From the IMG/VR virus record IMGVR_UViG_3300030419_007641, positions 96,001 to 160,000 of that record: a stretch of DNA of 64,000 bases; one strand, written 5' to 3'. Source of the stretch: a virus. The notes beneath the pieces were generated by a model. It was not told the origin of the DNA. It saw only the letters and a program-made list of their open reading frames with translations, and did not search any database. Positions 794 through 13,124 of the stretch are shown in pieces (position 1 is the stretch's first letter; each line of letters opens with the position of its first letter). The position numbers and the translations under genes were made by a program.

Positions 794-810
794 GGAATTA
801 AATATAAGTA

Positions 811-1710
811 ATGGCTGTTTTTGATTTACCTGAAATTAATTTACCGGGATACGCACGTTTTTATAATTTTGCTGATACTACAAAGAAGTTTAATTCTAAT
901 TACGATATTGTATGGTCTTTTCAGTATAAAATTCCTAGTACAAGCTTTGATGCTCCTAATACTACTTCTAAAAACTACCAAGCAGGGTTTACCACATTTT
1001 TAACTACCTTAACATCCCCTACTTCTTCTTTACCCGGGCAATATTTAGGAGATTCAGACCCCTCTGTATTATCTGGTACACCACTGCATACAGAAGGCGG
1101 GGATGTTGTATTTACAGAAGGTTCTGATGCAATACTAGTAAATTCTACAGCTGTTAGTGGTCAATTACTTAAAATTGCTTTTGATACAACAGGGCTTTAT
1201 GCAGTATCTGGAAGAAGCAATAGACCGGGAGTTTCATTACATAATGTGCACCGCGAAGCTTTTATAATCAGAGATTACCAGGACAGGGTACTTTGTAACG
1301 TTCCACTATCTACATGTGGTACCACCTTTAGTGCTATATCTTCTGAGGAATTTAGAACCCTAAGGTTTAGATATGTAAATCTTGGGCGGAAACTTCATAT
1401 AGATTTCAGAGATAGTAATACTACTTCCTATACCAAACTAACAACTTTTGACCTAGGGTACCGAGTAGCAAACTTTGATAATTTAGATAATGTGTTCTGT
1501 GGATTTTCATATTGCACACCCATATCCTCTTCTCGTGGAACTAACAGCTCTGCAGCAAGCGCCAATGCATTTTTCCTCAAAGAGTTTACTGCAGAGGGCT
1601 TTATCGGGGGTACTGTTACTACCCAAACTATCACTAGCGAAGCCCTTTCTTCAAATCCCAATAATAACGTCACTACTGTTACTAATGTAAGCGCTATACC
1701 TATTACATAA
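811..1710 (+). CDS. L-type (legume) lectin/concanavalin-like beta-sandwich protein, possibly structural
   Basis: Ser/Thr-rich beta-strand pattern with lectin-like motifs in the expected order: GFTTFL, IAFDT, VFCGFS. TTAAATA at 798-804. Confidence 0.5.
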   Translation: MAVFDLPEINLPGYARFYNFADTTKKFNSNYDIVWSFQYKIPSTSFDAPNTTSKNYQAGFTTFLTTLTSPTSSLPGQYLGDSDPSVLSGTPLHTEGGDVVFTEGSDAILVNSTAVSGQLLKIAFDTTGLYAVSGRSNRPGVSLHNVHREAFIIRDYQDRVLCNVPLSTCGTTFSAISSEEFRTLRFRYVNLGRKLHIDFRDSNTTSYTKLTTFDLGYRVANFDNLDNVFCGFSYCTPISSSRGTNSSAASANAFFLKEFTAEGFIGGTVTTQTITSEALSSNPNNNVTTVTNVSAIPIT

Positions 1711-1711
1711 A

Positions 1712-2563
1712 ATGAGTTTAGGAATAAAATATACTTCCTATTGCAGGTTAAATATTATTACACTATTAAGTGCTGATAGTGGCGGACCAATATATGATAT
1801 ATATGACAGAAAAACTGGCAGAAAATTAGACACTGTCGTACTACCGCCTAATGATAACGTATTTCCTGTATCTATATATAAAGTAAGTAGGTATAGAGAA
1901 AGTAAAGAAAGCCCGGAATCTATAGGGCTTATTGTACAGAGTAACGGAGTAACTCAAGAAATAGTAACTCAGTGTGAGCCTATTCCTGATATTCCACGGG
2001 CTCGAGCAATTAAAGATAATCCGTTTAATATGGAAAAGATAGATCCGGTGGAATGGAGGGAATGGTTAGATAAACAGAATAAGCCTCCTGGCTGGGTTCT
2101 TAATGATGAGGGAATGATAAGAGAGGAAGTTATAAATGCTTTCTTAAATCAACGATCAGTAGGTAATGAGGAACTAAACCGGTATACAACAGGGCGTGAG
2201 CGTTGTTGCCCGCCAACCCCTGGAGCTCACAAAAGCGGTATGTGGTTTTACAAAAGTGGTATGTCTAATTATTTAACTCCATTTAATGGTGAACCGCAAA
2301 ATGGAATGGTATTTTGGCGATTTGTTGAGGACATGGCCGGTGAGGAGCCACCATGGCTTTGGCATGATCCTCAGCGTCTTCAACGAGATAATATAGAGCG
2401 GCTCCTTAATGATCTGGGAGAAGATCCCGGAGAAAGACCCGATAATCCTGATGAGCAAATAGACTGGGGTCAAGAAATGATGAACATGTTAAATGATATA
2501 AATAAAGAACGAGAGGGTCAAGGGGAACCACCAATAGAAATTCCACGCGCGCAACAACCTTAA
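1712..2563 (+). CDS. hypothetical protein, W/P-rich C-terminal half with a CCPP motif
   Basis: 283-aa ORF with no recognisable family. Composition shifts toward that of the downstream W/P-rich genes. Confidence 0.75.
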   Translation: MSLGIKYTSYCRLNIITLLSADSGGPIYDIYDRKTGRKLDTVVLPPNDNVFPVSIYKVSRYRESKESPESIGLIVQSNGVTQEIVTQCEPIPDIPRARAIKDNPFNMEKIDPVEWREWLDKQNKPPGWVLNDEGMIREEVINAFLNQRSVGNEELNRYTTGRERCCPPTPGAHKSGMWFYKSGMSNYLTPFNGEPQNGMVFWRFVEDMAGEEPPWLWHDPQRLQRDNIERLLNDLGEDPGERPDNPDEQIDWGQEMMNMLNDINKEREGQGEPPIEIPRAQQP

Positions 2564-2614
2564 ATGATTTTATTGAAATGATATATGTATCGATAACAAA
2601 GGCAGGGGGATGTA

Positions 2615-5533
2615 ATGGCATATAATGCATTATATCTAGCTGGTATGGGCTGGAATAGCCCAAATTTAATAGGAAATCCAGGTGCCATGGAACCTGATTT
2701 CTACCAGAAGTCCGTAAATGAATCTATGTTTGGGTTCTACGGTTATTGGTGGCCATTGTTTTTAGACTACAATGAAGCAGTCGCAGCTGATGACCCAAGT
2801 GTTCGTCAGACTGTTAGAAAGGAAGCAGTAGCGCTAGTATTCCGTGAATATAGCTATTCGAAGGGTCGACCAGGATTAAATGGCGAGACATCGGGACTAG
2901 TAAAGTTTTATATGCCCCTAGACAAGGCAATAGAGCATCTTTTATCACCGGCTAGTGAAACACATAGATTTTGCTCTACTATAGGATGGATGGGGAATGA
3001 CATGTTTGGTTGTGTTGCTCCAGGTGATGATAACTGGCCGGACGCGTGTAACGGACAACCAATTATTCCAGAAAATGCACATTCGTACCCATGTTCACAT
3101 ATGTTCTTTAAGCCAGATGGAAATCCATGGACGCGACCATTGGTTCAAATGCTTGACTACGTGCCCCCTATACCAGGAATCGATCCGCATTACCCGGAGG
3201 GATTTGGCCAGACATTAATCCCAGAAATTGTCGACAGCACCGGTGGTAAATTTAGACCTCAATTTAGAATAGGTGAAGATCCTGGAAAATTGCCGCCTGT
3301 TCCCATAAGAGGATTCGCTGGACCCGGAGGATTGAAGGGGCATTTGTACGACCCAAATTATAATTATACATTTTTAAAACAAGATACGCAATTTGCACGA
3401 CGATGGCCAGTAGGGCTAGCGGGTAATCCAAAGCCAGGTGCCGGTGAAATATATAATGGCATTATAGAAAGTGATGATGAAACAGAGGAAGTATCCTTTT
3501 TAGGGTGGGGAAATAATGTATTGGGAAATCCGTGGTCAAATCTTCCATACCCCGGACCATGGCATTTTCTTGAACAGGAATTAAACTTTGAGCATCCGGA
3601 TATAACTCGAGCGGACTGGCCGATAGGTCCTGTAGATGATAAGCTTTTTGCTATAGCTCAAAAGGTAAATCTGTGGGGCGATGGCGGGATTACATCGGTG
3701 CTACAATATAATTATGCGGAGTGGTTAGCAGAAAGAATGTTTCAATTTATGGGGAGGCCTTTCTGGTCAGTGCCGGCACCAAACGTGGAAGATGACCCGG
3801 GGCCCCCTCTCCCTCAGGAGTTAAGAGAACAGGCTATGAGCTTTATAAAGACAGTTCCTGTTGCGGACTATATTATAGAAGGTGATACAATATATGACTG
3901 GATGCAATGGGCTTCTGCGATGGCTGGTGGTTGGCCGGAGATTGGTGAACGACACCGCAGGAACAGGATTGGATTACGGGCTCATTTGGAACGAGGTGAT
4001 ATTGGTCCAGATACAGTTGTTCAATGGCGTGGCAAATTATGGAGGCCCGCTGGTGATGATGAAGAGACTCGCATGGATAGTGTAAGGTGGATTACATCCC
4101 CCCCTACAGACGTTGCTCCTGGTGTATTCGCCGGGAGTAGGCAGTTGCAAATTCATGAAGAATCTAAAGACCCGGCATTGGATATGTGGACAACGCCTCT
4201 TCATATCGGTCGAGTGGACACCGGGGTCGGGTGGGAGACATACAAGAGATGGCGACGTTTAATACCACCCCCTGAAGTGAATAGGGAGACGTCTGAGTGG
4301 AGTAGTCGGGACATGGAACGCGGCCAGAAGGTCGGGTTTGGTCATAGTTCTATAGATTATGGAGTATTATTAGCCAGTGATCTTAAGCCATGTCGGCCGG
4401 CCGAGTGTGAAGTCTGGTTAAAGGAGCCTATATTACATCTTTGGAATGACGGTTATGTGGGATTCGAAGGGTATAATGGTCAGATTTTTGACGGGTATAT
4501 ACGCCAAGATGATATTGATCGTATTGGCGGCCCGATTCCCGAAGAATATAGAATGGTAATTAAACCAGGAAGGACAAACCGGGAATTTGTGCGGAGTAAT
4601 GATCGCTGGACGTTAGATAATCAGATAAATTATGCTAATTTTCTAGAAAATCAAAATCCTGGAATATTCTTCGAAAAATTTGGTAGGCTTCCAGTATGGG
4701 AAGAGATACCTATACCTCGAGAGTCTCATTATCGCGAGTACATTAAACACTGGCCAGAAATTCCTCTTGAAGTAGTAGATGAAAATGACCCTGAAGAGCA
4801 GTGGAAAATAGATCAAATGCAAAGGTCAAAGAGGCAAATAGTTATTCCCCCGCTGTTCACAAAGTATGGTGAAATGACGGCTCCTTGGACAAACCCCGGA
4901 CCGTTAAACGGGATGCGTACGACTAAGCGATCTTGGACTTATTATACTCAAACACCAAACGGTAATACTGAAGCGTTTGATCAATTATTACTTTTAAACT
5001 GGGGCAAATCTATTAGACCTGAACTACCACCCGGTCCGACAAATGGATATGAATGGAATTATTTAGAACCTGGTGGTAATGTAGCGGGAATACGTTGGGG
5101 TAAACCCCGACTACGGGAAATTGTCGCGACTTCCTTCACACAAAATGAACAAGGTGCACCTGCAGGCGCCTCTGGAAATGCGCGTAATTTTCCGCCATGG
5201 GAAGGAACGCCGGTATGGTATTTAGCGTTAACAAACTATTCTCAAGATTGGAGTGTGCTGTTTCCGCCAGATAAGCCATGGGTAGCAAATCCACCACTAT
5301 GGCTTATGCCAGCTCCTCCATCATATGCTAATGAGCTCATGTCTGAGCAGTGGCCTGATCCTATAATATTCGGGGGACCGGGCGCGATCGGCCCTGGCGA
5401 CCTGGATGCTATTAGAGGTATCCCGGGAGCAACTGCTAGTCAAGAATTTTTAGCGTTGTTACAACAAAACACAAGATTTTTAGCTCGCCAGGTTGGTTTC
5501 CGCGGCCTGCGAGGTGTATTTTCGCCTGATTAG
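2615..5533 (+). CDS. large Trp/Pro/Gly-rich protein of unknown function, paralog A
   Basis: 972-aa ORF. Shares MAYNALYLAG, YWWPLFLDYNEA, IYDWMQWASAMAGGWPEIGERH and the identical C-terminus ASQEFLALLQQNTRFLARQVGFRGLRGVFSPD with 5600-8374. Confidence 0.9.
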   Translation: MAYNALYLAGMGWNSPNLIGNPGAMEPDFYQKSVNESMFGFYGYWWPLFLDYNEAVAADDPSVRQTVRKEAVALVFREYSYSKGRPGLNGETSGLVKFYMPLDKAIEHLLSPASETHRFCSTIGWMGNDMFGCVAPGDDNWPDACNGQPIIPENAHSYPCSHMFFKPDGNPWTRPLVQMLDYVPPIPGIDPHYPEGFGQTLIPEIVDSTGGKFRPQFRIGEDPGKLPPVPIRGFAGPGGLKGHLYDPNYNYTFLKQDTQFARRWPVGLAGNPKPGAGEIYNGIIESDDETEEVSFLGWGNNVLGNPWSNLPYPGPWHFLEQELNFEHPDITRADWPIGPVDDKLFAIAQKVNLWGDGGITSVLQYNYAEWLAERMFQFMGRPFWSVPAPNVEDDPGPPLPQELREQAMSFIKTVPVADYIIEGDTIYDWMQWASAMAGGWPEIGERHRRNRIGLRAHLERGDIGPDTVVQWRGKLWRPAGDDEETRMDSVRWITSPPTDVAPGVFAGSRQLQIHEESKDPALDMWTTPLHIGRVDTGVGWETYKRWRRLIPPPEVNRETSEWSSRDMERGQKVGFGHSSIDYGVLLASDLKPCRPAECEVWLKEPILHLWNDGYVGFEGYNGQIFDGYIRQDDIDRIGGPIPEEYRMVIKPGRTNREFVRSNDRWTLDNQINYANFLENQNPGIFFEKFGRLPVWEEIPIPRESHYREYIKHWPEIPLEVVDENDPEEQWKIDQMQRSKRQIVIPPLFTKYGEMTAPWTNPGPLNGMRTTKRSWTYYTQTPNGNTEAFDQLLLLNWGKSIRPELPPGPTNGYEWNYLEPGGNVAGIRWGKPRLREIVATSFTQNEQGAPAGASGNARNFPPWEGTPVWYLALTNYSQDWSVLFPPDKPWVANPPLWLMPAPPSYANELMSEQWPDPIIFGGPGAIGPGDLDAIRGIPGATASQEFLALLQQNTRFLARQVGFRGLRGVFSPD
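3866..4029 (+). repeat. near-identical direct repeat island shared with 6806-6969
   Basis: gactat..atagaaggt.atacaat.tatgactggatgcaatgggcttctgc.atggctggtggttggccggagattggtgaacgacaccgcagg.acaggattggattacg.gctcatttggaac.aggtgatattggtccagatacagttgttcaatggcg is present in both paralogs with only scattered substitutions. Confidence 0.95.
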
Positions 5534-5551
5534 AATATTAACCTTATAATT
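5429..5551 (+). repeat. near-identical direct repeat (gene end plus 3' UTR) shared with 8270-8392
   Basis: gcaa.tgctagtcaagaatttttagcgttgttacaacaaaacacaag...cctgattagaatattaa.cttataatt occurs at the end of both paralogs and extends past the stop codon. Confidence 0.95.
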
Positions 5552-5599
5552 ATTTTATGAAAACGATACATACAGCAATAACAAAGATCGGAGGCAATA

Positions 5600-8374
5600 A
5601 TGGCATATAATGCATTATATCTAGCTGGTACCTGTTGGAATAATCCTCTATCTCCTCCAGAACAATTTCAAGCCCCTGGTGTACCAATTAGGACAAGATT
5701 TTTCGACCAATGGCAAGATAGAGTAAATTTTGCCTCATATGGATTTGTGGGGTATTGGTGGCCATTGTTTTTAGACTACAATGAAGCAAAAGAAGCTGAT
5801 GATCCTAGTGTACGTAATACTACTACCAAAGAAGCGTTAACGCTAATGTTTCGAGAATTTAGCTATACGGAGGATCGACCCGGGTTAAATGGTGAGACAT
5901 CGGGACTAGTAAAATTTTATATGCCCCTAGACAAGGCAATAAAGCATCTTTTAACAGATTGTCGGTATATGTGGTCAGTTACTGATGCTTCTGGGAACCA
6001 GAGAATACCTTTTGAAGGCGATGGCGATGAGAACGAGGAAGAAATAGTCCCAGGCATACGGGTATACCGTAGGCAATTTTTTAATGATAAAGGGGAGCCA
6101 TACTTACGGCCGGCTTATCCTATGCTTAAAAACGTACCACCTCTACCGGGGTTAAACTCTAGGTATGGAACGCGGCACAGTGCCGCGCCCCGATCACAGT
6201 GGGCTAGCCCAATACTTGATGCTACTGGTGCCGTGCTCCGACCGGGATTCTCTGTTGAGTCCCAGTCATGGGCCAGAGATGCTGGGTTGTTGGATGATGA
6301 TCCTAAATATGATTATACATATCTTGTACCAAATACACAATTTGCGCGGTTATGGCCAAAGGAATTGGATGGATTTACCTCACGTGTTCCGCGACATAAA
6401 TTATACCTAGGTATAACAGTCGATCAACCTGATCACCTAGAACCTAGCTTTATAGGGTACGGAAACAATGTAGTAGGTAACATATGGGGCGATCAAATAA
6501 AAGTAGAATGGCGGTTTTTAGACTTAGTTCCTCCGGTCGAGTTTGATTTAAATGAACTTCAAAGATTAGCGACACTACATAATTTGTGGGTAGCCAACCT
6601 GGACATGGATATTCCTGGACCACCTATCCAGGAAAATTGGGCAGACGCGTGGGTAAACGATATGTTCTGGCGGATAGGTGATGTACGGGATAATTTCTGG
6701 GAATTCATCGATGATCAGTGGGTGCTTGTGAAGGGCGGACCAGAGCCTCTACCACAAGAATACCGACAAACAAGTATAGCAAGGTTTAAGGAATGCCCAG
6801 TTCCAGACTATGTAATAGAAGGTAATACAATCTATGACTGGATGCAATGGGCTTCTGCAATGGCTGGTGGTTGGCCGGAGATTGGTGAACGACACCGCAG
6901 GGACAGGATTGGATTACGCGCTCATTTGGAACAAGGTGATATTGGTCCAGATACAGTTGTTCAATGGCGGGGAAAAAACTGGAGAGTTGCTGGTAATGAT
7001 GAAGAAACACGCATGGATAATGTAAGATGGATTACAGCTCCACCTACAGACGTTGCTCCAAGCGTATGGGAGACCTGGCGTAATCGTGGTCCGTGGAGGC
7101 ATCATCCATGTGCACTGGCATCTGGGGTAGGGTGGGAAACATTAAAACGGTGGAGACGTTTAATTCCCCCACCAGCTGATGGAAATGAGGGAGTTTCCGG
7201 TGCTGATTTTGGATATAATACTATAGATTATGGAATACTTTTAGCTGATAACCCTCCTTTGGTACCTGGGTATCCATGGTTCGGGCAAAATACTGAGCTC
7301 AAACCCATAAACCCGGGCTGGGAGGGAATCCATGGATTCCCTGAGCGCCTAGGTGGTCCTATTCCTGACGCAATTAAGGATCCGCATGGTGACGGTGATC
7401 GTGGAGGTCTCGACTGGGGCTGGGATCAGTCTCCCGAAGACCTTGAGGCTGCTGACAATGCTCCATGGTGGCGTAAAGTAAATGATTATAAAAATTTTAT
7501 AAATGAACAAAATCCGGAAATATTTTTTGAAAAATTTGGTAGGCAACCTGTATGGGAAGAAGTTTGTGCGCCTCTGATCGAATCTCCAATATTAAATCCT
7601 GTTCGTGTTACAAATAAATGGCCTGAGGATCCCTTGAGAGTATTTAATGAAAATGACCCTAATGAGCAGTGGAAAATAGATCAGACGCGTAGGGCGAAGG
7701 GACAAATAATTATTCCACCTCTATTTGACCGGACATATCCAAGGGCCGGACCGTGGCAGGGTGATAATTCGCCACGTTTACTATTACGAAAGTGGAAGAA
7801 ATGGGCCGAGGGCCTCCAGCTGGAGGATGGAGAATGGCAAAAAAAAGTTATCGAATATACATTCGATGTATGCATAAACTTCAATAAATCTATTAGGCCG
7901 GGATTGGCGCCCGGGCCAACTGACGGAATGGACTGGGATTACCGCGATGTAAGGGGCAACGTAGCAGGAATACACTGGGGTAAGCCTCAATTACGGGAAA
8001 TTGTCGCGACTTCCTACACACAAAATGTACAAGGTGAACGTGTTGCAAATACACAGTCAGCAATCTATTACTCACCGTGGGAAGGAACGCCAGTATGGTA
8101 TTTAGCGTTAACAAACTATTCTGAGATATGGGCACCTCCGTTTCCGATAAATCAGCCATGGGTAGCAAATCCACCACTATGGCTTATGCCGGCTCCTCCA
8201 TCATATGCTATAGAGCTTTTAAGTGAACAGGATGATAATGATATGATCATGGGCGTTGGAGTTCCCGGGGCAATTGCTAGTCAAGAATTTTTAGCGTTGT
8301 TACAACAAAACACAAGGTTTTTAGCGCGCCAGGTTGGCTTCCGCGGCCTGCGAGGTGTATTTTCACCTGATTAG
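5600..8374 (+). CDS. large Trp/Pro/Gly-rich protein of unknown function, paralog B
   Basis: 924-aa ORF; direct tandem paralog of 2615-5533. Confidence 0.9.
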   Translation: MAYNALYLAGTCWNNPLSPPEQFQAPGVPIRTRFFDQWQDRVNFASYGFVGYWWPLFLDYNEAKEADDPSVRNTTTKEALTLMFREFSYTEDRPGLNGETSGLVKFYMPLDKAIKHLLTDCRYMWSVTDASGNQRIPFEGDGDENEEEIVPGIRVYRRQFFNDKGEPYLRPAYPMLKNVPPLPGLNSRYGTRHSAAPRSQWASPILDATGAVLRPGFSVESQSWARDAGLLDDDPKYDYTYLVPNTQFARLWPKELDGFTSRVPRHKLYLGITVDQPDHLEPSFIGYGNNVVGNIWGDQIKVEWRFLDLVPPVEFDLNELQRLATLHNLWVANLDMDIPGPPIQENWADAWVNDMFWRIGDVRDNFWEFIDDQWVLVKGGPEPLPQEYRQTSIARFKECPVPDYVIEGNTIYDWMQWASAMAGGWPEIGERHRRDRIGLRAHLEQGDIGPDTVVQWRGKNWRVAGNDEETRMDNVRWITAPPTDVAPSVWETWRNRGPWRHHPCALASGVGWETLKRWRRLIPPPADGNEGVSGADFGYNTIDYGILLADNPPLVPGYPWFGQNTELKPINPGWEGIHGFPERLGGPIPDAIKDPHGDGDRGGLDWGWDQSPEDLEAADNAPWWRKVNDYKNFINEQNPEIFFEKFGRQPVWEEVCAPLIESPILNPVRVTNKWPEDPLRVFNENDPNEQWKIDQTRRAKGQIIIPPLFDRTYPRAGPWQGDNSPRLLLRKWKKWAEGLQLEDGEWQKKVIEYTFDVCINFNKSIRPGLAPGPTDGMDWDYRDVRGNVAGIHWGKPQLREIVATSYTQNVQGERVANTQSAIYYSPWEGTPVWYLALTNYSEIWAPPFPINQPWVANPPLWLMPAPPSYAIELLSEQDDNDMIMGVGVPGAIASQEFLALLQQNTRFLARQVGFRGLRGVFSPD

Positions 8375-8428
8375 AATATTAATCTTATAATTGATATATA
8401 TAGAACATTATTAAATAATTAAAACATA

Positions 8429-10516
8429 ATGGACTTTAACGCACTTTATATTTACGGTACTAATGATACTAGATGGGGATTCCAATTGTTAGGTCAAGCT
8501 GGTGCACCACGAGAAGATGTTTTTAATAAATGGGGATTTTGGTGGCCGTTATTCTTATCCGAAGAAGAAGCTAACGCGGTTGATCCTGATAATGAATCAA
8601 TAGCTTTTACGTATAGAGAATACGTATATTCTGATTATGCAGAAACAATAGGACTTGGCACAGCAGGTGAAAGTGTACCATTTTATATGCCAGCGTATGC
8701 GTTTGCAGAGCCTAACAGTGAGTTGTTTAATTATATGTTAGATAATGTACCGCCTATACCTGGTGGATACGCTGGACATACACCAATTGGAGCTGCAAAT
8801 TATGATCCACGTAATGCTGTGCCTGGTCAAAATTATAAATGGCTTCCTCAAATGACCAATGAATATGATATGGGATGGCCAGATGGGTTTGGATTTATAA
8901 ATACCGGAAGAAGCAATGTAGTCAACCGCGCCGACTGGATTTTAGAGTTTGGCGGTGGGGATCCAAATGCAGAACCTCCACAATGGGCACAAGACCTGCC
9001 TCCAGATGATCCACTACATGTACCTGCTGGGGTTGGTCTAGGAGCGTTGGCGCAGGAACAACCACCCGGGGTAAGAAAGGGCAAAACCTTTAAACTTCAA
9101 ATGGATGAACCTGTCCCTAGCTTTGTTGCTCCTATTATAGACGGTCATATGTTGGGATTTGGAATTGGCGCGCCGCCATTGGGTCTAAATCCGTTTAGAA
9201 CTATCCGGGAAGCGCGTTGGTTTTTTGCCTTGCAGGCAATATGGATGGGTCACATTCGACCTGGAGGAACCTTTGATGAGCAGATAGCGCGCAGACCGCG
9301 TTGGAATCAACGTCATTGCAGGATTAACCCTTCTGTAGGTGATTCCCGGGTTGGCTGCTGGGTAGGCCCGCTTCCGGATGAAGGAAATTTTATACGCCCA
9401 ATATTGCGAATTCGCGATCCGAATGGCGTTATAATATCCAGTGAAGATATGTTTCCTGAAGGAATAGGACCAAATCATGAACTTCGGCTTAATTTTCCAG
9501 AATATCTGGGCATGAATGCATCATCAGTAGAAGAAGTTGAGGCTAATATTGACCGGCAGCTATCACCACCAAGATTTGCTCGTTATTGGGCAGAAGATAT
9601 TGAGGATGCGCATCAACAAGCTGTAGAAAGAGAAAGAATAGTGAGCTCTTTAAATAGCGTGGTAATACCTAATTACGTAATTGGCGAAGGGTATACCCGT
9701 GAAGGTTTTGATCCACGTGTATGGCCAGGGGGCAAAGCGTATGGTAGCTGGTCAACATACCAACAATGGGTGCTTACTATGGCAGATTCAGCCTGGGATG
9801 GCCCACGACCGCCTAATATTCCAGATATTGATTATGATACGGTAATTAAGTGGGAATCCCCATATTCTGGATCCAAATCCCGATTACCAACTACAGAAGA
9901 GGTAGAAGCCGAAAAAAATGAATTAGTATACGCTGGTGTAAACTCTGCTGACGCAGAATTACAAGCACATAGTTGGCGATTTTTCCCGAAAAAACCTCAA
10001 TGTTTTAGACTTAGAGGGGCAACTCTGGGACCAGAAAGCGGAGAGATAATGTTAGATCAAAGCTTAAATGCAATTAAAACAGCTGAATTTACTGCTGCGT
10101 GGTGGACCGTGCCACCGGGATACGGTATTGATTTTAAAAAGGGCCACGGTAATTGGGTGTGGGACCCTAATTTACCTTTCCCGGGAATTTGTAGAATGGG
10201 TGTGGATCCGATATGTAATGCAGGTTGGAAACCGGGATTTGGAATGGGGCCATGGCAACCATGGGAAGAAGCAGGAGAAGCTGCACCTACTGGGTGGCCA
10301 GTAACACCTCTTAGAGGTAATTTTGATAATGTTAAATTTACTAAAGGCCAACCACAATATATATGGGCTCCGGGTAGAAATTGGGCTTTTGAATTTAATG
10401 TCCCATTTGATGAATTAGGTATGATGGTAGGTGAAAACGTAACACAAACAGTGCTTTTAGGTGAGGGTGAAACTAACCCCGGGTTGGACTTCCCGTCTCG
10501 CTTGGGACAAATTTAA
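8429..10516 (+). CDS. large Trp/Pro/Gly-rich protein, diverged paralog C
   Basis: 695 aa. MDFNALYIYG, GFWWPLFL, FYMP, MLDNVPPIPG and DTVIKW echo motifs of A/B. TTAAATA at 8411-8417. Confidence 0.85.
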   Translation: MDFNALYIYGTNDTRWGFQLLGQAGAPREDVFNKWGFWWPLFLSEEEANAVDPDNESIAFTYREYVYSDYAETIGLGTAGESVPFYMPAYAFAEPNSELFNYMLDNVPPIPGGYAGHTPIGAANYDPRNAVPGQNYKWLPQMTNEYDMGWPDGFGFINTGRSNVVNRADWILEFGGGDPNAEPPQWAQDLPPDDPLHVPAGVGLGALAQEQPPGVRKGKTFKLQMDEPVPSFVAPIIDGHMLGFGIGAPPLGLNPFRTIREARWFFALQAIWMGHIRPGGTFDEQIARRPRWNQRHCRINPSVGDSRVGCWVGPLPDEGNFIRPILRIRDPNGVIISSEDMFPEGIGPNHELRLNFPEYLGMNASSVEEVEANIDRQLSPPRFARYWAEDIEDAHQQAVERERIVSSLNSVVIPNYVIGEGYTREGFDPRVWPGGKAYGSWSTYQQWVLTMADSAWDGPRPPNIPDIDYDTVIKWESPYSGSKSRLPTTEEVEAEKNELVYAGVNSADAELQAHSWRFFPKKPQCFRLRGATLGPESGEIMLDQSLNAIKTAEFTAAWWTVPPGYGIDFKKGHGNWVWDPNLPFPGICRMGVDPICNAGWKPGFGMGPWQPWEEAGEAAPTGWPVTPLRGNFDNVKFTKGQPQYIWAPGRNWAFEFNVPFDELGMMVGENVTQTVLLGEGETNPGLDFPSRLGQI

Positions 10517-10527
10517 TTAAAAATAAT

Positions 10528-12897
10528 ATGCTTATTCAAGATCTTATAATATCATGGGGAAGAAATAATAGGTACCGAAGAGAGTCGCGATTTGGTTTAA
10601 TTCCAAGAAAAGAGAGCACAGCAACCAGTGATCTTGGCCTGGATGGTGAGGCTTTGCAAATTTTACAGGAAGGCCTTGATGAAGTATTATTAATTCCAGC
10701 AAATGTCGGTGATATTATTGAGCCCATAATGGCATTTATACCTCAAAATAATAATATACCTCTTCCAATACCCGGGCAACCTCTTCCCTGGGATAATCAA
10801 CCTGGAGGGGATCCAGAGCTACCGGTACCTCCTAACGAATTGGAGGAATGGATGGACCGTGGTGGGCATATCCGCCGCGGCCGCCGCTTTGAAGTTGAGT
10901 CGTCAACTGGTGGTCAACACCCACATGGTGACCCTGATGCAACTAAACATGGATTAAGCCGACACCGAGTGTGTTTTACTATTCATGATGCTGAATGGGT
11001 AGCACAAAACAAAGATGTTCCTCCTGAAGAGGATACGTATGCCAATGCTTTTGGAATAGGATCGGATTTTTGGAATAGACTTCCCGATGAGGCTAAAATT
11101 AATCCAGACACAGGAGACACGTGGACTGAAGAAGAGTGGGTATCGCACTTAATTTCTACTTCCGGGGAGCCACTATCTGATAGGTTTGGTCCACATCTTC
11201 AAATAGGTGCAAAAGGTAAAGGGTGGGAAGTATGTGAATGCTGTAATTGTTGCCCTCCAATTGCTTGTGATGCTTATTGGTATTGGGAGAGATTAGAGCA
11301 AACCGTTGCTGGTACATGGGAAGTACAAACTTGGCCAATGTGTCAGCTGCCTGTACCCGGACCAATGTGCGATTTTCCACTTGAGGAACGTATTATTTTT
11401 CCTCAAGATCTGCTCCCGGAACGTGGTGCTCAGCGGTTAGCTTTAGCTGATCTGTTTCAAGCCGGGGATATCTTACCTGGACCAATAGTGTTTCGTGGTG
11501 TGGATGATTGGGCTATTTTGAATCGTCACGTTGAGATGATGGATGGGCCTACCGGGGTACTGGATAGACTACCTAGTATGCCGTTAGGCGGCAAAATACA
11601 GGGTGAAGATGTTAAAGACGAATTTTTCAACAACCCTGATATTAATATCGATGAGGCTAGTAAGCGCATGCGTGATCTTCAAGTACTATGGAACAAATAT
11701 AATAGTAGCTTTAGCAACATTTATATTGATCTCGACTTCAGTCGACCAGATCTAGAGTTACTTGGAGACTTTAATAATCTAGATGCACCAATTAATAGAC
11801 AAAATACTCCGCTGATAGCGGAGATTCCTGGGAGGAGAGCTCTAAAAGCTCTACAAAGGGGTAAAGGGAGTGAGGTTAATAAATTTATTAAGCCTTTTGC
11901 TGGTTTAGTATTAAAATATATGCCAGAGAACCCAAATATTGTATTTAGGCGACTGTGGAATGGGCAAATTAGATTAAACTTTATAGATCCTGCGGGAGCT
12001 CAACAGATGGAAAACATTTTACGAGTCGCGAGGCAAATATTAGAAATAATGGATTGGGCAGGTTTGATAAGAGAGGGCCCGGGAGATGGATTCGAACCCC
12101 GTCGAGAAGGCCAGGAAATAGATGAGATAATGGAACTACTGAGAGCGGACTGGAACGCGCATTTTGCAAGAAATGGCATGGACAATATACCAGCTAATAC
12201 ACCAGTTATTGAAACCATGGCCTGGGGTGGAAAATACGTAGTACGAGCGGATTTTGATGCCGGGTTTGGTGGCACTATGTTTCCTGATGTACATAACGGC
12301 CCTCATCGATGTTTTTATGTTACAGATCCAGTATGGGTAGCTACCTGGCCGGAGGTTAATCCAGCGGTCGATATATTATCAATGGCTCATGATAGAGATA
12401 AACAGTATGTTCAAGACCTTGAAGTTGGAGATATAGGAAACGGGTGGGGTGTGTGTGCAGGGTGCCCTTGCCCAGATGACAGTGACAACTTTAAACCTCT
12501 AAATAGGGGCGAGCTTAAAAAAAATCTAAACTATGCTGAGAGATGGTTGAAAGCAGCTCCTAAGGCTCTCATACCACAAGGAGAAGCTGGTGATCCCGGT
12601 GAGCCTGGTGAACCTGGTGCACCAGGTGAGATTGAAGGCGAAGAGGTATTTATGGAAATTAAAAAAGCAGCTGGACAGGTAAGGCAGGTAAAAGAGCAAC
12701 CTAATTTCCCAACGCCGTTTGGTGCACCCAATGTCCCGGAACCCAAAAACCCTAAAGAAGCGCGAAAGGAATTAGATAAAGCATTAAAGCAAGATCCTGT
12801 AGCTGCTAAAGAAGCAATTAAACGTATACAAAGACTCGTGCCTGATGAAATGAACGCATTTCTTAAGCGCGCTGAAAATAAAAAACTTAACCCCTAG
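10528..12897 (+). CDS. large hypothetical protein with Cys clusters and a short collagen-like tract
   Basis: 789 aa; contains CECCNCCPPIAC, CAGCPCP and a Gly-X-Y run near the C-terminus. Confidence 0.85.
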   Translation: MLIQDLIISWGRNNRYRRESRFGLIPRKESTATSDLGLDGEALQILQEGLDEVLLIPANVGDIIEPIMAFIPQNNNIPLPIPGQPLPWDNQPGGDPELPVPPNELEEWMDRGGHIRRGRRFEVESSTGGQHPHGDPDATKHGLSRHRVCFTIHDAEWVAQNKDVPPEEDTYANAFGIGSDFWNRLPDEAKINPDTGDTWTEEEWVSHLISTSGEPLSDRFGPHLQIGAKGKGWEVCECCNCCPPIACDAYWYWERLEQTVAGTWEVQTWPMCQLPVPGPMCDFPLEERIIFPQDLLPERGAQRLALADLFQAGDILPGPIVFRGVDDWAILNRHVEMMDGPTGVLDRLPSMPLGGKIQGEDVKDEFFNNPDINIDEASKRMRDLQVLWNKYNSSFSNIYIDLDFSRPDLELLGDFNNLDAPINRQNTPLIAEIPGRRALKALQRGKGSEVNKFIKPFAGLVLKYMPENPNIVFRRLWNGQIRLNFIDPAGAQQMENILRVARQILEIMDWAGLIREGPGDGFEPRREGQEIDEIMELLRADWNAHFARNGMDNIPANTPVIETMAWGGKYVVRADFDAGFGGTMFPDVHNGPHRCFYVTDPVWVATWPEVNPAVDILSMAHDRDKQYVQDLEVGDIGNGWGVCAGCPCPDDSDNFKPLNRGELKKNLNYAERWLKAAPKALIPQGEAGDPGEPGEPGAPGEIEGEEVFMEIKKAAGQVRQVKEQPNFPTPFGAPNVPEPKNPKEARKELDKALKQDPVAAKEAIKRIQRLVPDEMNAFLKRAENKKLNP
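12580..12633 (+). repeat. collagen-like Gly-X-Y repeat
   Basis: GEA-GDP-GEP-GEP-GAP-GEI in frame within 10528-12897. Confidence 0.8.
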
Positions 12898-13124
12898 AGG
12901 CGCCCTAGGGCAACTTCTACTTTAAGATCATGCTTCATTGAATGAAATCGCTCACTGATATATTTCTGAAAAGCTAGCGGCTTTACCCATTTATTATCAT
13001 TACAGCTATCTACCTTACCGCCTACTACTTCTAACGCCTCAATTAAACAAGCCCACCTCACAAATTCATCAAATTTCATAGTTTTTGTATTACCATCTTT
13101 TAAGTTAAAAGTAAATTGTTTCAT
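12894..13124 (-). CDS. hypothetical protein
   Basis: 76-aa ORF with natural composition, last of a minus-strand run. Confidence 0.75.
   Translation of the reverse strand: MKQFTFNLKDGNTKTMKFDEFVRWACLIEALEVVGGKVDSCNDNKWVKPLAFQKYISERFHSMKHDLKVEVALGRL

What the first reader, a model, noticed from the sequence alone, without database searches (positions are those of the whole stretch)
2615..10516. Tandem array of three giant Trp/Pro-rich paralogs of unrecognised family
Seen: three co-oriented ORFs (972, 924, 695 aa) share an N-terminal signature (M-A/D-Y/F-NALY-L/I-x-G ... G-Y/F-WWPLFL ... FYMP ... ML-x-x-VPP-I/L-PG) and internal motifs. They are extremely rich in W, P and G and poor in K, and the DNA is visibly more GC-rich than the rest of the window. 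I recognise no tail-fibre, enzyme or repeat-domain family. Inference: an expanding, diversifying gene family, such as host-recognition/adsorption or ejected proteins, located downstream of Gly-rich and lectin-like structural genes. About 8 kb for these three genes (11 kb with the flanking ORFs) implies strong selection to keep them.
Basis: partly seen in the sequence, partly recalled or inferred. Interest (0 to 1): 0.8.

Follow-up and report, generated by a model that had tools for sequence, protein, structure and literature searches.

The report
Orphan Trp/Pro-rich phage tail-slot proteins
Three large tryptophan- and proline-rich genes of an uncultured marine T4-like phage form a protein family with no known relatives; they sit in the slot where related phages carry one giant tailspike-type gene, so they are probably new host-recognition proteins, but fold and function are unproven.

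Summary
ORFs A (2615-5533, 972 aa), B (5600-8374, 924 aa) and C (8429-10516, 695 aa) exist and carry the reported N-terminal signature. They rank first to third in Trp content among the 148 ORFs of 150 aa or more in this 197-kb marine T4-like myovirus.

Two corrections:
- Only A and B are full-length paralogs (46% identity). C shares just the first ~100 residues and the VPPxPG motif.
- The higher GC is mostly a result of amino-acid composition. Only A and B show a modest GC3 excess.

The family is a true orphan. Pfam, PHROGs, NCBIfam and PDB sequences gave nothing, and an exhaustive HMMER scan of 1.84 billion representatives found only its own three clusters. AlphaFold failed (pLDDT 26 and 41).

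Seventeen more distant IMG/VR relatives keep the gene order gp10_C, collar fibres, o115. After o115 they have one giant ORF (complete examples 1,086-2,431 aa) where this phage has o116+A+B+C+D. Two of these giants contain a right-handed beta-helix, and one matches a tailspike PHROG. Three giants carry o116 and D modules in collinear order, so A-B-C lies between the two halves of what is a single gene elsewhere.

B-type proteins diverge strongly between near-identical phages, and A has overwritten patches of B by gene conversion. The most likely role is a multi-component host-recognition module. Earlier notes covered only this same stretch.

The parts
811..1710 (+). o115 (299 aa): conserved left flank of the variable slot
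   Evidence: 17 IMG/VR relatives at 48-64% aa identity, always followed by the variable giant ORF. 97% identical in Tara locus L007. Late-promoter-like ATTAAATA at -14.
1712..2563 (+). o116 (283 aa): N-terminal anchor-like domain plus a Cys/aromatic module; corresponds to the N-terminal part of the relatives' giant slot protein
   Evidence: phmmer: residues 3-104 match residues 6-117 of the L008 giant (i-E 6e-11); residues 160-206 match an internal module of the L009, L015 and L016 giants (i-E 5e-9 for L009 and L015, 9e-8 for L016). Only 55% identical in L007, where flanking genes are 95-98% identical; dN/dS 0.33.
2615..5533 (+). Gene A (972 aa, P0001): Trp/Pro-rich orphan protein
   Evidence: Orthologs at 85-100% identity in Tara/ENA marine metagenomes.
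5600..8374 (+). Gene B (924 aa, P0002): full-length paralog of A; the hypervariable member
   Evidence: 46% identical to A. B-type proteins in related phages are 97, 62 and 51-52% identical.
8429..10516 (+). Gene C (695 aa, P0003): shares only the N-terminal domain with A and B
   Evidence: Orthologs at 79-100% identity. ATTAAATA at -19.
10528..12897 (+). Gene D (789 aa, P0004): corresponds to the C-terminal part of the relatives' giant slot protein; has Cys-rich modules (aa 146-173, 229-256, 595-653), a short collagen-like run and a Lys/Glu-rich tail
   Evidence: phmmer matches to the L009, L015, L016 and L008 giants; collinear in L009, L015 and L016, lying after the o116 module. Only 2 homolog clusters.
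2615..2944 (+). Shared N-terminal domain of A (aa 1-110). Equivalents: B at about 5600-5950, C at 8429-8695
   Evidence: Alignment, hhalign, local HMM. The AF2 model has pLDDT above 50 only at about residues 49-76 and 96-109.
3857..4127 (+). Gene-conversion tract, central island of A; copy in B at 6797-7067 (89% nt)
   Evidence: Synonymous-codon identity is 0.8-0.96 inside islands against 0.1-0.5 in spacers. B1 carries A-type residues here while B2 and B3 share another version.
5423..5558 (+). 3' end of A plus downstream spacer; copy at 8264-8399 (92% nt), giving an identical 32-aa C-terminal tail in A and B
   Evidence: In the tail, B1 is 95% identical to A but 56% identical to B2 and B3.
2563..2657 (+). 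Duplicated 5' flank with a GGAGG-like ribosome-binding site; copy at 5548-5642 (79% nt)

Best explanation
A, B and C are lineage-specific, late-expressed distal-tail proteins of an uncultured marine T4-like myovirus, and together with o116 and D they form its host-recognition module.

Shown:
- The five genes fill the one hypervariable slot between the conserved gene o115 and the convergent genes o121-o123.
- In 17 more distant relatives this slot holds a single giant ORF. Some of these giants are beta-helix, tailspike-type proteins.
- o116 and D correspond to the N- and C-terminal parts of such a giant, so the A-B-C cassette lies between the two halves of a gene that is continuous elsewhere.
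- A and B arose by tandem duplication of a ~2.9-kb unit. A has partly overwritten B by gene conversion.
- The B position differs strongly between otherwise near-identical phages.

Inferred:
- The ~100-residue N-terminal domain common to A, B and C is a docking module. It would attach each protein to a common partner, either o116/D or the baseplate.
- The non-repetitive, acidic, aromatic-rich bodies bind host surface structures, probably glycans.
- Several alternative specificities would thus be presented, as in branched multi-tailspike complexes.
For: Context:
- T4-like myovirus: sheath, three tube-like genes, gp25/gp6 wedge, gp10_C and two Mtd_N+Collar fibres upstream; PolB, UvsX, gp46 and DnaB downstream.
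- All genes from gp6 to D are co-oriented.

Slot comparison:
- 17 IMG/VR loci keep the order o109 to o115 and then have one giant ORF (complete examples 1,086-2,431 aa). In five of them o122/o123 homologs follow (o121 as well in L020).
- Pfam Beta_helix scores above cut-off in the L010 and L017 giants (40.4 and 33.3 bits against 25.9).
- The L010 giant matches phrog_2234 'tail spike protein' at E 1e-9.

Split gene:
- In the L009, L015 and L016 giants the o116 N-terminus, the o116 C-module and D modules m1-m3 are collinear.

Diversification:
- The contig of 34,153 bp carries A at 94%, C at 100% but B at only 52% identity.
- In L007, ~90% nt identity over 9.2 kb ends inside o116. The next gene there is a different B-type.
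- dN/dS is 0.05-0.12 in o111-o115 against 0.33-0.38 in o116 and the B N-terminus.

Gene conversion.

The conserved N-terminus with divergent bodies matches the usual layout of receptor-binding proteins.

Protein properties: no TM segments, no internal repeats, pI 4.7-5.0, aromatic content 12.6-12.9%.
Against: - There is no fold or domain evidence for A, B or C themselves. AF2 gave pLDDT 26 (full-length A) and 41 (N-terminal domain). Foldseek and the ESM Atlas gave nothing.
- No proteomic, adsorption or expression data exist.
- A and B keep a conserved C-terminus, whereas many fibres vary most at the C-terminal tip.
- Trp/Pro-rich, non-repetitive sequence is not typical of fibres or beta-helix spikes.
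- A and B lack the NWTAAATA late-promoter-like motif found directly upstream of many late genes. Late expression is therefore inferred from operon position only.
Confidence: 0.5

Rival explanations
1. A, B and C are virion structural proteins of the baseplate periphery or tail, such as scaffolding, whisker-like or sheath-distal decorations, with no direct receptor-binding role. The conserved islands would be assembly interfaces, and the variability would reflect relaxed constraint on surface loops.
For: - Position within the baseplate/fibre operon.
- Conserved islands are spread along the whole length of A and B, including the C-terminus.
- A and C are rather well conserved between relatives (79-100%).
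- o112 and o113, with collar domains, already look like fibre or receptor-binding proteins.
Against: - The slot is occupied by tailspike-type beta-helix proteins in relatives.
- The B position is replaced by 51-62% identical variants between phages with near-identical flanks. Pure scaffold proteins rarely behave this way.
Confidence: 0.2
2. A, B and C are late-expressed non-virion proteins, for example soluble glycan-degrading or surface-modifying enzymes, or superinfection or host-takeover factors, that merely reside in the variable locus.
For: - Acidic, Trp/aromatic-rich, non-repetitive large proteins resemble carbohydrate-active enzymes in composition only.
- A and B have their own Shine-Dalgarno sites instead of the late motif.
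- There is no detectable similarity to any structural family.
Against: - No catalytic or any other domain was detected.
- No signal peptide-like or TM segment was found.
- The genes are embedded between the two halves (o116, D) of a slot protein that is a tail protein in relatives.
- The shared N-terminal domain suggests assembly onto a common partner.
Confidence: 0.12
3. A, B and C are internal or ejected proteins packaged in the head or tail and delivered into the host.
For: Only the shared N-terminus, which could in principle be a packaging signal.
Against: - The shared part is a ~100-residue domain, not a short targeting peptide.
- The genes lie in the distal-tail slot, not near head or scaffold genes.
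- Sizes of 695-972 aa and 14% W+P are unlike T4 internal proteins as I recall them; this comparison was not tested.
Confidence: 0.05
4. On origin: the cassette is a recent horizontal import from a GC-richer donor, and that import explains the GC island.
For: - GC is 0.44-0.46 against 0.369 for the genome.
- A and B have a GC3 excess (z 4.6 and 3.7) and use SD-type initiation, unlike their neighbours.
- A, B and C are absent from 17 relatives.
Against: - About three-quarters or more of the GC shift is predicted from amino-acid composition alone.
- C has no GC3 excess.
- No donor or homolog exists anywhere among 1.84 billion representatives.
- Neighbouring slot genes o116 and D, and parts of o108 and o110, are also W/P-rich.
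Confidence: 0.1

Closest known systems
Branched multi-tailspike complexes of Ackermannviridae (CBA120 TSP1-4; PMC8825819, PMC11414711)
   Same: - Several large adjacent genes at the distal-tail locus of a myovirus.
- Conserved N-terminal assembly parts with divergent bodies.
- Individual members are exchanged between close relatives.
- A gp10-like element (o111, Gp10_C) lies nearby.
   Different: - No sequence or fold similarity was found, and no T4gp10-like domain or beta-helix was detected in A, B or C.
- The composition is Trp/Pro-rich.
- Assembly into a complex is only inferred.
Right-handed beta-helix tailspikes (Pfam PF13229; phrog_2234)
   Same: They occupy the very same genomic slot in relatives L010 and L017.
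   Different: A, B and C give no Beta_helix hit at E up to 1 and no homology to those giants.
T4 baseplate-distal set gp9-gp12 and the mosaic tail-fibre genes of T-even phages (own knowledge)
   Same: - Location after gp6 to gp10-like genes.
- Patchwise recombination between fibre genes gives mosaics of conserved and divergent segments.
   Different: - No homology to gp9, gp11, gp12 or gp34-37.
- No fibrous repeats.
- Here the recombination is between tandem paralogs in one genome.
Giant slot proteins of the related IMG/VR phages (L008, L009, L015, L016)
   Same: - Same locus.
- They share modules with the flanking genes o116 and D.
- The L008 giant is also W/P-rich (4.3% and 12.3%).
   Different: A, B and C themselves share no detectable sequence with them.

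Membership tests
Right-handed beta-helix tailspike (PF13229 / phrog_2234) | Detectable parallel beta-helix repeats by profile | tested here: not met
   Pfam at E<=1 and PHROGs at E<=0.1 gave no hit for A, B or C. The same searches do detect the feature in the slot proteins of L010 and L017.
Right-handed beta-helix tailspike (PF13229 / phrog_2234) | Beta-helix fold in a 3D model | tested here: inconclusive
   AF2 models were unusable (pLDDT 26 and 41), and Foldseek BFVD had no match at E<=0.001.
T4 gp10-type attachment / branched RBP complex | gp10-like domain in the anchoring protein | tested here: not met
   Gp10_C (PF21939) is found only in o111, upstream. A, B, C, D and o116 gave no hit.
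T4 gp10-type attachment / branched RBP complex | Several adjacent RBP genes with a conserved N-terminal assembly part and divergent bodies | tested here: met
   The N-terminal ~100 aa are shared by A, B and C and the rest is divergent. Physical assembly cannot be tested here.
Collar-domain tail fibres (PF07484) | Phage tail collar domain | tested here: not met
   Present in o112 and o113 and absent from A, B and C.
DGR-diversified target proteins (Mtd-like) | Reverse transcriptase in the genome, and a TR/VR pair differing at adenines only | tested here: not met
   No RVT_1 in the 197-kb record. Mismatches in the A/B repeats involve all base pairs; 31 of 102 involve no adenine.
T4-type internal (ejected) proteins | Short N-terminal capsid-targeting peptide cleaved by the prohead protease | not testable with these tools
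   The shared N-terminus is a ~100-aa domain. The consensus of the targeting peptide is known to me only from memory, and processing needs proteomics.

The most novel reading that the evidence does not exclude
A, B and C represent a previously unseen structural class of phage receptor-binding protein: non-repetitive, Trp/Pro-rich, and neither fibre nor beta-helix. The class would have arisen within one marine T4-like lineage and inserted into a split giant tailspike gene. It would diversify by cassette replacement at the B position plus patchwise gene conversion between tandem copies, with a private ~100-residue docking domain that lets several specificities share one attachment site.
Probability: 0.3. 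Interest if true: 0.6.

Novelty: new variant of a known kind. Interest (0 to 1): 0.42.

Why it matters
Host-recognition proteins of uncultured marine phages are largely unknown, and they determine who infects whom in the ocean. This locus offers three things:
- A family with no relatives among 1.84 billion representative proteins, and with an unusual composition.
- A clear natural experiment. The same slot holds a beta-helix giant, other giants, or a split giant with three inserted genes.
- A worked example of concerted evolution, A converting B, next to cassette replacement.

If the proteins are shown to be virion adhesins, they would add a new fold class to phage receptor-binding proteins and a marker for tracking host switching in this lineage. 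If not, the finding remains one more orphan variable-locus family, which is common in marine viromes.

Tried and rejected
Library and database searches:
- Pfam, PHROGs and NCBIfam on A, B, C, D, o115 and o116 gave nothing.
- PDB sequence profiles for A/B, C and the N-terminal domain gave nothing better than E 0.46.
- tblastn against 50,697 GenBank phages for A, C, D, o110 and o115 gave no match.
- IMG/VR scans with A/B, C and D gave no relatives; near-identical records may be masked.
- The JGI metagenome scan with A/B gave none. The second scan, with P0028, gave one Tara scaffold, L007.
- The exhaustive HMMER search found only the family's own 3 clusters.
- The ESM Atlas gave scores at noise level and holds no models.

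Structure:
- AlphaFold2 on full-length A and on the N-terminal domain with a mixed A/B/C alignment gave pLDDT 26 and 41.
- Foldseek on the weak model was meaningless.

Hypotheses rejected:
- DGR mutagenesis: no reverse transcriptase and no adenine-specific pattern.
- Homology of A, B or C to the other W/P-rich genes o108, o110, o116 and D: none by BLAST or HMM.
- Homology to the relatives' giant proteins: none.
- Internal repeats and TM segments: none.
- Cyanophage identity: no psbA.

Full report
**Where the window lies.** The window is bases 96,001-160,000 of a 196,877-bp IMG/VR virus record that CheckV estimates to be 93% complete. The phage is a T4-like myovirus.
- Upstream of the finding lie a tail sheath, three tail-tube-like genes, gp25- and gp6-type wedge subunits, a Gp10_C protein (o111) and two paralogous fibres with Mtd_N and Collar domains (o112, o113).
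- Downstream lie a DnaB-like helicase, UvsX/RecA, family-B DNA polymerase, a gp46-like ATPase and a helicase.
- It has no psbA.
- Its polymerase and sheath are only 30-42% identical to those of any cultured phage.
- Cluster members come from Tara Oceans and ENA marine metagenomes; the one named member is from the <0.22 µm fraction of station 042 DCM.

**Check of the observation.** ORFs A (2615-5533, 972 aa), B (5600-8374, 924 aa) and C (8429-10516, 695 aa) are co-oriented and intact. The reported N-terminal signature is present in all three.
- Among 148 ORFs of at least 150 aa, the three rank first to third in Trp (4.2-5.1% against a median of 1.0%).
- They rank first, second and fifth in Pro (9.5-10.4% against 3.8%).
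- They are among the poorest in Lys (2.4-3.2% against 7.6%).
- GC is 0.443-0.456 against 0.369 for the genome.

**Two qualifications.**
- A and B are full-length paralogs (46% identity). C is related only over its first ~100 residues plus the VPPxPG motif (BLAST 4e-10; hhalign 96% probability over columns 1-110 only; local HMM).
- The GC rise is mostly forced by amino-acid composition. With genome-typical synonymous codons the expected GC is already 0.431-0.441. Only A and B show a modest GC3 excess (z 4.6 and 3.7), and C shows none (z -0.06).

**Orphan status.**
- Pfam, PHROGs, NCBIfam and PDB sequence profiles give nothing for A, B and C; for D the only hit is a sub-threshold Collagen match.
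- tblastn against 50,697 phage genomes gives nothing.
- The word-indexed search of 5.8 billion clusters finds six clusters for A/B and two for C. All are marine metagenomic and unnamed.
- An exhaustive HMMER profile scan of 1.84 billion representatives finds only three clusters, all belonging to the A/B family itself.
- AlphaFold2 fails: mean pLDDT is 26 for full-length A with 8 sequences. It is 41 for residues 1-200 with 14 sequences that include C-types. Only residues ~49-76 and ~96-109 rise above 50, as a strand-helix-hairpin-helix core.
- Foldseek and the ESM Atlas give no lead.
- The proteins have no internal repeats and no hydrophobic segments. They are acidic (pI 4.7-5.0) and 12.6-12.9% aromatic.
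- Many invariant Trp, Pro and Gly positions are spread over the whole length of A and B. This argues for folded, non-fibrous proteins.

**Anatomy of the A/B pair.** The pair is a mosaic. Islands of 76-96% nucleotide identity alternate with spacers of ~40% identity. The islands are 2741-2947, 3857-4127, 4629-4857 and 5075-5558, with their copies in B.
- At identical residues the same codon is used in 80-96% of cases within islands, but in only 12-50% within spacers. The islands are therefore recently homogenised, not merely constrained.
- Comparison with other family members gives the direction. The B of this phage and its 97% ortholog (B1) carry A-type residues in the central island and the identical 32-residue C-terminal tail of A. 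The B2 and B3 types share a different version.
- By region, B1 is 32-41% identical to A and 51-72% to B2 in the spacers. In the tail it is 95% identical to A and 56% to B2.
- A has therefore overwritten patches of B by gene conversion.
- The duplicated unit includes ~50 nt of 5' flank with a GGAGG-like ribosome-binding site and the 3' spacer.
- A DGR mechanism is excluded: there is no reverse transcriptase and no adenine-specific mismatch pattern.

**Variation between phages.** A-types are 85-100% identical and C-types 79-100%, but B-types fall into classes only 51-62% identical to each other.
- A contig of 34,153 bp carries A at 94% and C at 100% but B at 52% identity.
- The one related DNA locus I could fetch is Tara scaffold L007. 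It is ~90% identical in DNA over 9.2 kb, with o111-o115 at 95-98% in protein, up to window position ~1981 inside o116.
- Beyond that point o116 drops to 55% identity. The next gene in L007 is a B3-type gene directly after o116, preceded by a spacer 90.6% identical to the one upstream of B. The scaffold then ends.
- dN/dS is 0.05-0.12 for o111-o115, 0.33 for o116 and 0.38 for the B N-terminus.

**The decisive context.** o115 has 17 relatives in IMG/VR at 48-64% identity. All of them keep the order o109, o110, gp10_C, o112, o113, o115.
- All then have a single giant ORF. The complete ones are 1,086-2,431 aa; others run off the contig end.
- In L010, L011, L017, L019 and L020 this ORF is followed by the convergent homologs of o122 and o123 (o121 too in L020), with one extra ORF between in L017.
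- The 11.2 kb that hold o116, A, B, C and D here therefore correspond to one variable slot.
- The L010 and L017 giants contain a right-handed beta-helix above Pfam's cut-off, and the L010 giant matches the PHROG 'tail spike protein'.
- The L009, L015 and L016 giants contain these parts in collinear order: the o116 N-terminal domain, the o116 Cys/aromatic module, and three Cys-rich modules of D.
- In those phages o116 and D are parts of one gene. Here the A-B-C cassette lies between them.
- A, B and C have no detectable counterpart in any of these loci or records.

**Interpretation.**
- Shown: an orphan, lineage-restricted family. It was expanded by tandem duplication and is partly homogenised by gene conversion. 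It occupies the hypervariable distal-tail slot, which holds tailspike-type proteins in relatives.
- Inferred: A, B and C are virion-borne host-recognition proteins. Their common N-terminal domain docks them to a shared partner (o116/D or the baseplate). B is the most freely exchanged specificity cassette.
- The closest working analogy is the branched tailspike complex of Ackermannviridae (PMC8825819, PMC11414711). Membership fails, however: neither a gp10-like domain nor a beta-helix is detectable.
- I put this reading at about 0.5. A non-binding structural role gets 0.2, a non-virion late function 0.12, and ejected proteins 0.05.
- The idea that the GC island marks a foreign import is weak (0.1), because composition explains most of it.

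**Verdict.** Orphan variable tail-locus proteins are common in marine viromes, so interest is moderate. Interest would rise if a new receptor-binding fold were demonstrated.

Noticed in passing
whole record; e.g. window 797-804 (upstream of o115) and 8410-8417 (upstream of C): An NWTAAATA motif, like the T4 late promoter, starts 13-14 nt before the start codon of many late genes, and within 100 nt upstream of 60 of 225 ORFs in all. That leaves almost no leader, so these may be near-leaderless late mRNAs. A and B lack the motif and have GGAGG-like ribosome-binding sites instead.
   Followed up: partly
record 3374-7290 and 192737-196648 (outside the window): A 3.9-kb imperfect direct repeat (84% nt identity) lies near both ends of the linear record, and each copy contains a 548-aa ORF. 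It could be a true duplication or an assembly join of two strains.
   Followed up: no
record ~23,400-44,400 (outside the window): A cluster of genes has GC3 of 0.42-0.57 against a genome mean of 0.27 (z up to 12.8). This is far more deviant than A and B. They may be recently acquired, host-like genes.
   Followed up: no
window 10528-12897 (gene D): D contains two copies of a Cys-rich module (HR-x-CF...D-x-x-WV, then GW-x-VC-x-CC-x-CCPP), a short collagen-like GEPGEPGAPGE run and a Lys/Glu-rich C-terminal tail. The same modules recur in the giant slot proteins of relatives.
   Followed up: partly
record 64739-66406 (outside the window): Three consecutive tail-tube-like paralogs of 172-192 aa, all matching phrog_45, follow the sheath gene.
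   Followed up: no
record 84172-85362 (o108) and 87785-92497 (o110), upstream of the window: Two further baseplate-region genes are W/P-rich (W+P 12.9% and 10.6%) but share no sequence with A, B or C. The L008 slot giant is W/P-rich too (4.3% W, 12.3% P). The composition seems to be a trait of the distal-tail proteins of this phage group.
   Followed up: partly
window 12892-12910: A GC-rich hairpin (8 pairs) sits exactly at the convergent junction between D and the minus-strand gene o121. It may be a bidirectional terminator.
   Followed up: no
L010-L024 (IMG/VR relatives), about 2,700-6,400 in each locus: In most relatives the Gp10_C-like region is carried by two ORFs (~757-795 aa and ~380-395 aa), where this phage has o110 (1570 aa) plus a 206-aa o111. 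The baseplate-distal genes are thus rearranged as well.
   Followed up: no
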